Shown in pieces: positions 44,701-47,700 of a DNA stretch of 64,000 bases. Position numbers: made by a program. Within the stretch, counting starts at the first letter, position 1; the number at the start of each line of letters is the position of its first letter. The DNA is from Escherichia coli (GTDB lineage Bacteria; Pseudomonadota; Gammaproteobacteria; Enterobacterales; Enterobacteriaceae): assembly GCF_041886205.1 (NCBI RefSeq), contig NZ_CP169029.1; one strand, given 5' to 3'.

Positions 44701-47700
44701 CAACGGAGGCTAATGGCATGAAATTGACGCTGAAAAACCTTAGCATGGCGATCATGATGAGTGGAATGATCATGGGAAGCAGTGCAATGGCGGCGGACAG
44801 CAACGAAAAAATAGTCATCGCCCATCGCGGTGCCAGTGGATATTTGCCGGAGCATACGCTGCCAGCAAAAGCGATGGCGTATGCGCAGGGAGCGGATTAT
44901 CTGGAACAGGATTTGGTGATGACCAAAGACGACCATCTGGTTGTCCTGCATGACCATTATCTCGATCGTGTTACTGATGTTGCCGATCGTTTCCCGGATC
45001 GGGCGCGCAAAGACGGTCGTTACTACGCGATAGATTTCACGCTGGATGAAATTAAGTCGCTGAAATTTACCGAAGGTTTCGATATTGAAAACGGTAAAAA
45101 AGTGCAGACTTATCCGGGGCGTTTCCCAATGGGTAAGTCCGACTTCCGGGTGCACACCTTTGAAGAAGAGATTGAATTTGTTCAGGGGTTAAATCACTCA
45201 ACCGGAAAAAATATCGGTATCTATCCAGAAATTAAAGCGCCGTGGTTCCATCATCAGGAAGGGAAGGATATTGCGGCAAAAACGCTGGAAGTGCTGAAGA
45301 AATATGGTTACACCGGTAAGGACGACAAAGTTTATTTGCAATGTTTTGATGCTGATGAGCTGAAGCGTATTAAGAATGAGCTGGAACCTAAAATGGGCAT
45401 GGATCTCAATTTGGTACAGCTGATTGCCTATACCGACTGGAATGAAACGCAGCAGAAACAGCCGGACGGAAGCTGGGTTAATTACAACTACGACTGGATG
45501 TTTAAGCCGGGTGCTATGAAACAGGTGGCGGAATATGCTGATGGTATTGGCCCGGATTACCATATGTTGATTGAGGAAACATCGCAGCCGGGTAATATCA
45601 AACTCACTGGCATGGTGCAAGATGCTCAGCAGAATAAACTGGTAGTGCATCCTTATACCGTGCGGTCAGATAAACTGCCTGAATACACTACTGATGTGAA
45701 TCAGTTATATGATGCTCTGTATAACAAAGCGGGTGTAAATGGGCTATTTACTGATTTCCCTGATAAGGCAGTAAAATTTCTTAATAAAGAGTAATGCTAC
45801 TGCAGGATGGCGTTCATGCGCCATCCTCTGCTAAAACGAAATAATGCTTCTACCGGTTATTCTATTCATTAACCGGTGCATCCTGTTAAAAAAGATGCCA
45901 ACATATTTGCGTAAAACTCATTCGTTAAGAAAGCTAACACTGGGCATTGTTATTCCTTAAACAGTATGAATTGGGTTCAATAATAAATTTTATTGCAGTT
46001 TATACTGTAAAGTATTATTCGTATTTCGGAAAAGTAAAGAAAATATTAATGTATCTTATTAATTTATCATATTGTTCTTGAGTGAATGCTGTTTGCACAC
46101 CTTCAGGACAATATTCACCAGTAATAACCAGTTGTCCATTGCTGTGTTGTACCATTAAACCTTTTTTTTCCTTTGGATCTTCAAACTTAGAATTATCAAA
46201 CGTGAAGATGTTATTTTCCTGTTTTGAGTAAGCAAAGAAATCTCGTGTATAGCTGAAACTATCATTTATTAATGGTGCTAACTTTTTGTCGGCGATATCG
46301 ATAAGCTCACCACTTAATTTATTGATGTATTTCATTTGATTCAATTTTTTCTGCGCTTGTACAATTTGCTCGTAGGTATTTTTAATTTTTTTAGAAGAAT
46401 TCTTGAATATATCATAGCGTTCCTCGGAGGATGTGTATTTGTACCCTTCTGTATTTTTCTCAGAATGTAATAGCAGGTCTGTATATTCTTTTTGTTTGCT
46501 GTGAAGTTGACTTTTAATACTTTCCTCACTGCTGATCTTATGATGTTTATCAGAGTCGTTTGTTTTTGAAATGTCTTTTTCTGTCAGTGTCTGGTCCGTG
46601 TTGTGGATATTTTCTTTTGCAACATGCTCATTGATGATGTTAATTGCAGCTTCATATTCATTTAAGTTTATTGTTCTTTCTGAAAGAAACCCTTCTTTGC
46701 TTTCGATACTCAAAACACCTTCGTTGTTTTCACCTCGGGTAAAGGTAAGGGTATAGGGTTCATAATCCGCTGCAAATTCATTTTTATACGTTATGACATG
46801 TTCGACAAAATGTCTTATTGGTACGAAACCATAACTGTGAACGTCAATTTCTTGGGTCTTGATGCTATCAATTGCATCTGAGGCTTTCGTGAAAAAAGCC
46901 AATAAATTAGCTATGTTGTCTGCTGAGGTTGATAACCCGTATCTACTTTGAGATATTTTTAGAAACTCATCGCAAAAAATCTCAAGTTTCGCGGTTTGTT
47001 GTGATTCTTTGTAAACTTCTACTGGTTGCAATTTATTATTTTGTAAAAGATTACAGCGAGATAAGTGAATAGATGTATTTGGCATAAATGATTCCTTGTA
47101 ATGTGAGTTAACAAGATACAATTTAATCTTTGCAGAATATATTCACTATCAAATTTAGCTCATTTTATTACGAAGACCTTTACGCATGTTAGAAAGTATC
47201 ATTATTGTTAATAAACACGGTAATAATTAACAAACAGATGTTTATAACTTCCCTGACAAGTTATTAGGTAACCCACTTGAAGATTGAGAATGGCTTCAGA
47301 GTAAACTGTGTACTGTTCGCCGGAGTGTCATTACTCTCAACAATCGGTTTTGACAGTGAGTCGGGCGCTTCATACCGGTTTCTACCTGGAGTCATTGTCA
47401 CTTCCCTAAACTGGATAAATATATATCGCTAATTCACAACGTGGACCAAAATCAGATGAAAACGCATTATTACGCATGGTAAAGCCTACAGGCCAACTAA
47501 GTGTGGCTAATCAGGCAATCTTACATTTGTCATCAATCTCATGTCTCACATCAAATTTTTCCACTCACCACGAGTTGTTCCGTACACGTTTGTAGTAAAA
47601 ACAGTGGACTGCCTTCTACCGGCTTTTCTTTAGCCAACAACGAAATCTGTCGATAGAAGGTTGGTTCGAGAGGAACGGAACACAATTCACCTGCAATGGT

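What the first reader, a model, noticed from the sequence alone, without database searches (positions are those of the whole stretch)
45795..47550. AT-rich islet with an unplaceable 356-aa ORF between glpQ and a LysR regulator
Between the glpQ stop (45794) and the LysR-gene stop (47551) G+C falls to roughly one third (hand counts of 60-nt samples gave 33-37%) against about 50% in flanking core genes. The only long ORF is 46015..47085 on the minus strand, with ATG at 47085 preceded by AAGGAA. Its product is hydrophilic, Lys/Glu/Asn/Ser-rich, lacks a signal peptide and TM helices, and has a low-complexity central stretch (KTNDSDKHHKISSEESIKSQLHSKQKEY). I cannot place it in any family. By my recollection MG1655 has only about 0.46 kb (the yfaH remnant) between inaA and glpQ, so this gene is accessory relative to K-12. 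No integrase, IS, tRNA or flanking direct repeat marks its boundaries. Low-GC single-gene insertions in variable slots often turn out to be toxins, effectors or anti-phage genes, but the sequence gives no positive evidence for any specific function.
Basis: partly seen in the sequence, partly recalled or inferred. Interest (0 to 1): 0.68.

Follow-up and report, generated by a model that had tools for sequence, protein, structure and literature searches.

The report
E. coli-only orphan gene islet

Summary
The interval 45795-47550 has 28-36% G+C and holds one long ORF (46015-47085, minus strand, 356 aa, AAGGAA 6 nt before the ATG). Comparison with islet-less strains sets the exact limits at 45828-47542 (1,715 bp). 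It sits in a 41-bp convergent spacer, after the glpQ hairpin and 8 nt past the LysR stop, with no duplication, IS, integrase or tRNA.

It is a genuine coding sequence: it shows codon periodicity and runs 375 open codons, against at most 162 in shuffles. Across 17 alleles omega is about 1, yet none of 136 variants is a nonsense codon (P about 0.003), and one frameshift was compensated. Independent knock-outs are common (IS1, poly-A slippage).

RefSeq flags intact alleles as "frameshifted" because its reference protein is the compensated O157-type allele.

Verdict: an old, weakly selected, dispensable ORFan of unknown function. Interest is low to moderate.

The parts
45805..45826 (.). glpQ terminator hairpin (GGATGGCGTTCATGCGCCATCC). 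This is backbone, kept on the left of the islet and shared with islet-less strains.
   Evidence: Sequence. Identical in K-12 L003 and in L004, where it directly abuts the LysR 3' end.
45828..47542 (.). AT-rich accessory islet of 1,715 bp. It is inserted in the 41-bp spacer between the convergent genes glpQ and LysR. No target duplication and no terminal repeats.
   Evidence: Junction comparison with L003, L004 and L006; composition; repeats. Present in 1,052 of 5,426 complete E. coli genomes, always chromosomal and single copy.
46015..47085 (-). [not shown]
   Evidence: Coding periodicity: GC1/2/3 = 0.41/0.28/0.31 and G at codon position 1 = 0.26 against 0.10 at position 2. 15 of 17 alleles are intact and there are 0 nonsense codons in 136 variants.
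47092..47097 (-). Shine-Dalgarno-like AAGGAA, 6 nt upstream of the ATG.
   Evidence: Sequence; invariant in 8 aligned alleles.
46486..46620 (-). Hyper-divergent patch (ORF nt 466-600, aa about 156-200). Two deep allele classes differ at 33 of 135 nt. Synonymous and non-synonymous divergence are both 5-8 times those of the flanks.
46486..46493 (-). Poly-A slippage site. The window allele has the interrupted form A5GA2. Other strains carry A8 (in frame), A9 (stop at codon 209) or A7 (frameshift).
46454..46458 (-). Second A-run (A5 here). In the O157-type alleles it carries the +1 insertion that restores the frame 33 nt after the A7 frameshift.
47086..47250 (-). Least variable part of the islet (mean pairwise divergence 1.5%, against 5.4% in the ORF). 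It is the presumed promoter and 5' leader of the orphan gene. E. coli 042 retains only about 126 nt of it upstream of an intact ORF.
   Evidence: No consensus sigma-70 site was found on this strand.
47264..47395 (-). 43-codon upstream ORF (MTPGRNRYEAPDS...) with an AGGGAAG Shine-Dalgarno-like sequence, 46% G+C, found only in E. coli. The DNA is conserved, but variants are 10 non-synonymous to 1 synonymous, so it is probably not a constrained protein.
47551..48429 (-). [not shown]
   Evidence: PMC10819331.

Best explanation
SHOWN:
- The islet is as old as the diversification of the species: synonymous divergence between alleles is 0.04-0.14, like glpQ. It always lies at this one chromosomal site.
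- The reading frame is actively kept open.
- The amino-acid sequence is barely constrained (omega about 1 by site counts, 0.4-0.95 pairwise). The gene has been destroyed independently by IS1, poly-A slippage and other frameshifts, and it is absent from 81% of genomes.

INFERRED:
- It is a horizontally acquired ORFan from an unsampled AT-rich donor, inserted by illegitimate recombination and then spread or lost by homologous recombination of the flanks.
- It makes a soluble cytoplasmic protein with two folded modules and a disordered linker.
- It gives at most a weak or conditional benefit.
- Given its 33% G+C and the lack of a consensus promoter, it is probably kept at low expression (H-NS-type silencing). 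It may also be reached by read-through from the co-directional LysR gene, whose terminator now lies beyond it.
- Its biochemical activity cannot be inferred from sequence.
For: Limits and insertion site.

Distribution.

No homologues or families:
- NCBIfam, PADLOC, Pfam and PHROGs.
- PDB by sequence and by profile.
- The 5.8-billion-sequence protein database.
- Exhaustive phmmer against 1.84 billion representatives: only E. coli fragments, plus one noisy long-read contig.
- Phages and plasmids at protein and DNA level.
- 100,044 species-representative genomes: one hit, a contaminant contig.
- Viral contigs.

Genuine coding sequence: periodicity and ORF length against shuffles.

Frame maintenance: 15 of 17 alleles intact, 0 true nonsense codons against 5.7 expected, P about 0.003; compensated -1/+1 frameshift.

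Weak constraint:
- Variants by codon position are 56/37/43, with 35 synonymous to 99 non-synonymous, giving omega about 1.0.
- Pairwise dN/dS is 0.4-0.75, against 0.01-0.13 for glpQ.
- The LysR neighbour is 99% identical in protein between the same two strains in which the orphan protein is 87% identical.

Knock-outs: IS1A in 12 of 59 spread-sampled carriers; the A9 allele; TW10509; other truncations.

Independence from LysR/MFS.
Against: - No promoter-like site lies on the coding strand upstream of the ATG.
- An omega of about 1 is also what a non-functional sequence gives. The frame-maintenance test rests on 136 variants and on alleles that were partly chosen as intact proteins. About 11 of the 17 were chosen by DNA identity or from a truncated product.
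- Insertion rather than deletion is argued only from the compact spacer in islet-less and divergent alleles, not from an outgroup species.
- H-NS silencing and read-through from LysR are inferences from composition and gene order only.
Confidence: 0.55

Rival explanations
1. Dead relic. The ORF was a gene in its donor but has had no function in E. coli. It is simply decaying, and its intactness in most carriers is luck or too little elapsed time.
For: - Omega is about 1, with no third-position excess.
- Overall divergence of the ORF (5.4%) equals that of the adjacent non-coding islet DNA (4-6.5%).
- There are many independent disruptions.
- It is absent from 81% of genomes.
- No promoter-like site was found.
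- No published expression data were found.
Against: - None of 136 substitution variants is a nonsense codon, where 5.7 are expected (P about 0.003).
- A frameshift was compensated 33 nt downstream, and that allele is fixed in the large O157 clade and found elsewhere.
- Indels are commoner in the 480 nt of non-coding islet DNA (7 gap columns) than in the 1,071-nt ORF.
- The alleles are as old as the species (dS up to 0.14), which is ample time for stops to arise in a 33% G+C sequence.
Confidence: 0.25
2. A new single-gene conflict protein, either anti-phage defence or abortive infection, or a factor acting against mobile elements or competing bacteria. It would be under diversifying selection and could be switched off by poly-A slippage.
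For: - It is a low-G+C single-gene islet.
- Omega of about 1 together with frame maintenance fits a mixture of purifying and diversifying selection.
- Two deep allele classes exist in a hyper-divergent patch.
- A7, A8 and A9 length variants occur at one tract.
- Presence is patchy across lineages.
Against: - There is no hit to any PADLOC model, even at E<=10 and when the protein is split by domain.
- No nuclease, ATPase, TIR, SIR2 or transmembrane signature appeared in Pfam or NCBIfam.
- It is not in a defence hot-spot or a mobile element.
- It has no relatives in any other bacterium or phage, whereas known defence genes spread widely between taxa.
- The elevated divergence in the patch is synonymous as well as non-synonymous, so it is not a positive-selection signature.
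- The window allele has an interrupted tract (A5GA2).
Confidence: 0.1
3. A type III secretion effector (LEE or ETT2 substrate) or another secreted virulence protein of EHEC.
For: - It is hydrophilic and AT-rich, with a Ser/Thr/Asn-rich N-terminus and no signal peptide.
Against: - It has no similarity to any effector family.
- It is not on a prophage or exchangeable effector locus.
- It occurs intact in LEE-negative backgrounds such as EAEC 042, APEC strains and a commensal from a wild bear. That strain 042 lacks the LEE is general knowledge, not tested here.
- It persists where the LysR gene is deleted.
Confidence: 0.04
4. A gene born de novo in E. coli from non-coding DNA.
For: It is strictly species-restricted, evolves fast, and has no homologues anywhere.
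Against: - The whole 1.7-kb segment, not just the ORF, is absent from islet-less strains, so there is no ancestral non-coding template at the site.
- A 356-codon open frame in 33% G+C DNA is impossible by chance (maximum 162 codons in 2,000 shuffles).
- It already has full codon periodicity.
- Its composition is foreign to E. coli.
Confidence: 0.03
5. A two-gene toxin-antitoxin-like module: the 43-codon upstream ORF plus the 356-aa protein.
For: A small ORF with a good Shine-Dalgarno sequence lies upstream on the same strand, in the best-conserved part of the islet.
Against: - A 178-nt gap separates the two ORFs.
- The small ORF's variants are 10 non-synonymous to 1 synonymous.
- E. coli 042 has lost the small ORF yet keeps the large ORF intact. 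That would be lethal if the small ORF were an antitoxin.
- There are no TA-family hits.
Confidence: 0.02

Closest known systems
ORFans (taxonomically restricted genes) of E. coli, as described by Daubin and Ochman 2004 (from my own knowledge of that work, not re-read here)
   Same: It has no homologue outside the species, is AT-rich relative to the genome, has elevated dN/dS, and shows patchy presence and frequent loss. The origin is presumed to be unsampled phage or other mobile DNA.
   Different: At 356 aa it is much longer than a typical ORFan. It is as old as the species and fixed at one chromosomal site, rather than recent and prophage-borne. No phage relative was found.
O-islands of E. 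coli O157:H7 EDL933, in particular the neighbouring OI-97 (z3494 MFS and z3495 LysR; PMC10819331)
Xenogeneically silenced AT-rich genes (H-NS targets) of enterobacteria (general knowledge)
   Same: It has 33% G+C in a roughly 50% G+C genome, no consensus promoter, and is a dispensable accessory gene.
   Different: H-NS binding or silencing at this locus was not tested and cannot be tested with these tools.
Single-gene anti-phage defence islets (PADLOC/DefenseFinder catalogues)
   Same: A low-G+C single accessory gene in a variable slot.
   Different: It matches no catalogued model, has no recognisable effector domain, is not mobile and is not shared with other taxa.
Homopolymer-tract contingency (phase-variable) genes of Neisseria, Haemophilus and Campylobacter (general knowledge)
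   Same: An intragenic A-tract shows natural A7, A8 and A9 length variants that switch the frame on and off.
   Different: The tract is short, is interrupted in many alleles including this window (A5GA2), and the off states look like fixed lineage markers rather than reversible switching.

Membership tests
ORFan / taxonomically restricted gene | No detectable homologue outside the species or genus | tested here: met
   Every significant hit is E. coli at >=71% identity. Nothing was found in phages, plasmids, viral contigs or 100,044 species genomes.
ORFan / taxonomically restricted gene | Atypical (AT-rich) composition and relaxed protein-level constraint, while still being a real coding sequence | tested here: met
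   G+C 0.33; omega about 1 against 0.01-0.13 for glpQ; codon periodicity and ORF length far beyond chance.
Classical genomic island / integrative element | Integrase or transposase, tRNA target, flanking direct repeats | tested here: not met
   No tRNA, no mobility gene, no target duplication at the exact junctions. The IS elements seen in other strains are secondary insertions.
Known anti-phage defence systems (PADLOC-DB 2.0) | Match to a defence protein model | tested here: not met
   0 families at E<=1 for the whole protein and at E<=10 for each half.
Pfam / NCBIfam / PHROGs families and solved structures | Significant profile or sequence match | tested here: not met
   Best matches: Pfam i-Evalue 0.43; NCBIfam none; PHROGs E = 0.09 to an unknown-function family; PDB E = 0.11 by sequence and none by profile.
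Any known fold (structure comparison) | A confident model with a significant structural neighbour | tested here: inconclusive
   AlphaFold2 mean pLDDT was 42.8 for the full-length protein and 47.7 for aa 1-165, both from shallow alignments. Foldseek against PDB gave no match with E<0.07. The models are too poor to interpret.
Type III secretion effectors of A/E pathogens | Homology to an effector family, or residence on an effector-bearing prophage or island | tested here: not met
   No homology. The site is a chromosomal backbone spacer.
Type III secretion effectors of A/E pathogens | T3SS-dependent secretion or translocation | not testable with these tools
   Needs secretion or translocation assays.
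Type II toxin-antitoxin module | Tightly linked small partner gene under coding constraint, always retained with the toxin | tested here: not met
   178-nt gap. The small ORF's variants are 10 non-synonymous to 1 synonymous. It is lost in E. coli 042, which keeps the large ORF intact.
H-NS xenogeneic silencing target | AT-rich foreign DNA bound and repressed by H-NS | not testable with these tools
   Only the composition criterion is met. ChIP or hns-mutant expression data are needed.
Phase-variable contingency locus | Intragenic simple-sequence tract with length polymorphism that toggles the frame | tested here: inconclusive
   A7, A8 and A9 variants exist, but the tract is interrupted in the window and several other alleles. 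Reversibility and switching rate were not testable.

The most novel reading that the evidence does not exclude
Probability: 0.1. Interest if true: 0.6.

Novelty: new member of a known kind. Interest (0 to 1): 0.3.

Why it matters
The gene matters mainly as a clean, well-delimited example of a long-lived bacterial ORFan. It is one gene at one fixed site, as old as the species, kept open yet almost free to change its sequence, and repeatedly lost.

Three practical points follow:
2. RefSeq/PGAP labels most intact alleles "frameshifted", because its reference protein is the doubly frameshifted O157-type allele. This hides a real gene from protein databases and pan-genome counts.
3. If a function is ever found, it would define a protein family with no known relatives.

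Tried and rejected
- **Homology.** NCBIfam, PADLOC, Pfam, PHROGs (whole protein and split halves), PDB by sequence and by profile, the 5.8-billion-protein word-indexed search, exhaustive phmmer on 1.84 billion representatives, tblastn and blastn against phages and plasmids, and degenerate-pattern scans of species genomes and viral contigs all gave nothing beyond E. coli.
- **Apparent distant hit P0035** (35% identity). It proved to be an error-laden long-read contig of the same locus: 71% nt identity with many indels across LysR as well.
- **The single "other species" hit.** A 3.5-kb contig in a Collinsella MAG is 92% identical at protein level to the E. coli gene, so it is contamination.
- **Structure.** Two AlphaFold2 runs (full length, and aa 1-165) gave pLDDT 43-48, and Foldseek against PDB was meaningless.
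- **Internal duplication or a HicB-like beta-beta-beta-alpha repeat.** I suspected this by eye. N against C halves scored no better than shuffles (p = 0.38-0.59), and Pfam showed no HicB signal.
- **Structured RNA or sRNA in the conserved upstream block.** Fold z-score was +0.8 and there was no Rfam hit.
- **The 43-codon upstream ORF as a real small protein or antitoxin.** Rejected on its substitution pattern and its loss in strain 042.
- **Terminal repeats.** A 17-nt near-repeat (45847-45863 and 47613-47629) is out of register with the junctions and is probably chance.
- **Template switch or local donor for the hyper-divergent patch.** None was found in the window or in the fetched loci.
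Full report
**1. The observation**

The window is E. coli. The region is 100% identical to strain wlxctx60, and the gene order is glpT, glpQ, hypothetical, LysR, MFS, inaA. The ORF at 46015-47085 (minus strand, 356 aa from the ATG) is the only long ORF between glpQ and the LysR gene. 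AAGGAA lies 6 nt upstream of the ATG. G+C is 0.28-0.36 over 45750-47250 and about 0.42 over 47250-47550, against roughly 0.5 in the flanks. There is no tRNA, no Rfam family and no mobility gene. K-12 has 462 bp between glpQ and inaA.

**2. Exact anatomy**

Strains lacking the gene (K-12 L003 and L004) read ...GCGCCATCCT|GTCTCA.... The window reads ...GCGCCATCCT[1,715 bp]GTCTCA.... The accessory segment is therefore 45828-47542.

- It lies immediately after the glpQ terminator hairpin (45805-45826) and 8 nt beyond the LysR stop.
- That places it inside a 41-bp spacer between two convergent genes.
- There is no target duplication and no terminal repeat.
- A divergent allele of the locus (L006, about 90% identity) also has a compact 44-bp spacer with a different hairpin.

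I therefore read the islet as an insertion rather than the ancestral state. This is an inference, because no outgroup species was examined.

The orphan gene lies on the same strand as the LysR gene and downstream of it. No terminator-like site was predicted between them, so read-through is possible. This is also an inference.

**3. Distribution and locus states**

The islet is present in 1,052 of 5,426 complete E. coli genomes. It is always chromosomal and essentially single copy. Two independent polymorphisms exist at the locus:
- the islet itself;
- a 1.87-kb deletion (window about 47795-49664) that removes most of the LysR and MFS genes.

All four combinations occur:
- both present: the window, O157 and L011;
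- LysR and MFS only: L004 and L006;
- islet only: L008-L010 and TW10509;
- neither: K-12, whose yfaH region is the LysR and MFS remnants.

CFT073 lacks everything.

No text or held supplement that I searched mentions it.

**4. Is it related to anything?**

No.
- Profile and sequence libraries: NCBIfam, PADLOC, Pfam, PHROGs and PDB gave nothing significant, for the whole protein or for its halves.
- Word-indexed search of 5.8 billion proteins: only E. coli sequences at >=85% identity.
- Exhaustive phmmer scan of 1.84 billion representatives: only fragments of the same protein, plus one noisy long-read contig.
- Phage and plasmid collections, at protein and DNA level: nothing.
- Viral contigs: nothing.
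- 100,044 species-representative genomes: one contaminant contig.
- Structure: AlphaFold2 models were unusable (pLDDT 42.8 and 47.7), and Foldseek returned nothing meaningful.

**5. Is it a real gene?**

Yes, by origin. The open frame runs 375 codons, against a maximum of 162 in 2,000 shuffles. It also has clear codon periodicity: GC1/2/3 = 0.41/0.28/0.31, with G at 0.26 in codon position 1 against 0.10-0.11 in positions 2 and 3.

**6. How is it evolving?**

Seventeen alleles were compared. Most were chosen by DNA identity class or from loci fetched for other reasons.

*Age.* Synonymous divergence (0.04-0.14) matches that of glpQ, so the islet is as old as the species' diversity. It also occupies the same slot in clade I strain TW10509.

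*Weak protein-level constraint.*
- The 136 variants fall 56/37/43 across codon positions, with 35 synonymous to 99 non-synonymous. Corrected for transition bias, omega is about 1.0.
- Pairwise values are 0.4-0.95, against 0.01-0.13 for glpQ.
- ORF divergence (5.4%) equals that of the non-coding islet DNA.
- The neighbouring LysR protein is 99% identical between the two strains whose orphan proteins are 87% identical.

*The frame is nevertheless maintained.*
- There are no true nonsense codons, where about 5.7 are expected (P about 0.003).
- Fifteen of the 17 alleles are intact.
- The O157-type alleles carry a -1 slip in a poly-A tract that is repaired by a +1 slip 33 nt downstream.

Synonymous and non-synonymous divergence are both raised 5-8 fold. 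This points to ancient alleles or an import from an unsampled relative, not to simple positive selection.

**7. Decay**

Independent inactivations were seen:
- IS1A inside the ORF in about 20% of carriers: 12 of 59 spread-sampled rows, from strains with names such as 'strain 410', NDM2 and OXA-181; their sequence types were not determined;
- an A9 tract giving a stop at codon 209 (strain TUM9757, and a protein cluster of 541 member sequences);
- a +1 frameshift in TW10509;
- several rarer truncations;
- an IS1-mediated deletion.

The gene is clearly dispensable.

**8. Annotation artefact**

PGAP flags the window allele, and every other A8 or A5GA2 allele, as a "frameshifted" pseudogene, although each has an uninterrupted 356-codon ORF. 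Only the doubly frameshifted O157-type alleles are annotated as proteins.

**9. Other content of the islet**

The 165 bp upstream of the ATG is the least variable part of the islet (1.5% divergence) and probably holds the promoter and leader. E. coli 042 keeps only about 126 nt of it together with an intact ORF.

A 43-codon ORF with a Shine-Dalgarno-like sequence (47264-47395) is conserved as DNA. Its variants, however, are 10 non-synonymous to 1 synonymous, and it is deleted in strain 042. It is unlikely to be a constrained protein or an antitoxin. No RNA structure signal was found.

**10. Interpretation**

The best-supported reading is an old, horizontally acquired ORFan. It is a genuine gene for a soluble two-module protein, kept open by weak or conditional selection, dispensable, and probably poorly expressed. 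Its biochemical function is not inferable.

The main rival is a functionless relic. Defence, effector, toxin-antitoxin and de novo readings all lack positive evidence, and each has specific counter-evidence, set out under the rival explanations.

Compared with known things, it behaves like the E. coli ORFans described by Daubin and Ochman (from my own knowledge of that work). It is unusually long, old and positionally fixed for that class. It is not a member of any catalogued protein family or defence system.

**11. Verdict**

The finding is real and accurately described, but it is ordinary in kind: a long-annotated hypothetical gene of O157 and many other E. coli strains. I score it 0.3.

Noticed in passing
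window 46015-47085; L001, L014, L018-L022, L025: RefSeq/PGAP marks intact 356-codon alleles as "frameshifted" pseudogenes. Its reference protein (WP_001301786.1) is the O157-type allele, which itself carries a -1/+1 compensated double frameshift. Most non-O157 copies are therefore missing from protein databases.
   Followed up: yes
window 46486-46493 (and 46454-46458): An intragenic poly-A tract varies between strains. A5GA2 and A8 are in frame. A9 is truncated at codon 209 and is a common allele. A7 is frameshifted and is rescued by a +1 in a second A-run 33 nt downstream.
   Followed up: yes
window 46486-46620: A 135-nt patch separates two allele classes that differ at 33 sites (24%). Synonymous and non-synonymous divergence are equally raised. 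The origin is unexplained: an ancient balanced polymorphism or a conversion from an unsampled homologue.
   Followed up: partly
window 47264-47395 (-): A 43-codon ORF with an AGGGAAG Shine-Dalgarno-like sequence, 46% G+C, called as a gene in several assemblies. It is found only in E. coli. The DNA is conserved but the changes are nearly all non-synonymous, and it is deleted in E. coli 042.
   Followed up: yes
window about 47795-49664; L003, L008-L010: The K-12 yfaH region is what remains after a 1.87-kb deletion that fuses an 81-codon C-terminal LysR fragment to the last ~105 nt of the MFS gene. The blast alignments overlap by about 9 bp at the junction. The same deletion occurs with and without the orphan islet.
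   Followed up: partly
L006 (E. coli O145 RM10425-C1): In this strain the glpQ 3' end, the terminator, and the LysR and MFS genes are only about 90% identical to other E. coli, and it has a different terminator hairpin. This looks like an introgressed divergent segment.
   Followed up: no
L012 (JAIJJM010000334.1, 'Collinsella sp.' MAG): A 3.5-kb contig binned as Collinsella carries the E. coli orphan gene at 92% identity. It is almost certainly E. coli contamination of the MAG.
   Followed up: no
L002 (O157:H7 FRIK2533) 6921-7997: glpQ is annotated as a pseudogene with an internal stop in this O157:H7 strain. My translation also shows an extra stop codon.
   Followed up: no
L004 1615-2514: In this islet-less strain the LysR ORF is 299 aa rather than 292 aa. 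A T5-to-T4 change just before the stop extends it into the glpQ terminator region.
   Followed up: no
L013, L014, L015, L025: The slot attracts IS elements. IS1A sits inside the ORF. ISAeme16 sits in the upstream region. An IS1A-associated deletion runs from within the ORF into the MFS gene. In L025, IS1A replaces most of glpQ.
   Followed up: partly
L018 (E. coli 042) 1672-1800: EAEC 042 has a further deletion running from about 126 nt upstream of the orphan gene's ATG into the C-terminal part of the LysR gene. The orphan ORF itself remains intact.
   Followed up: partly
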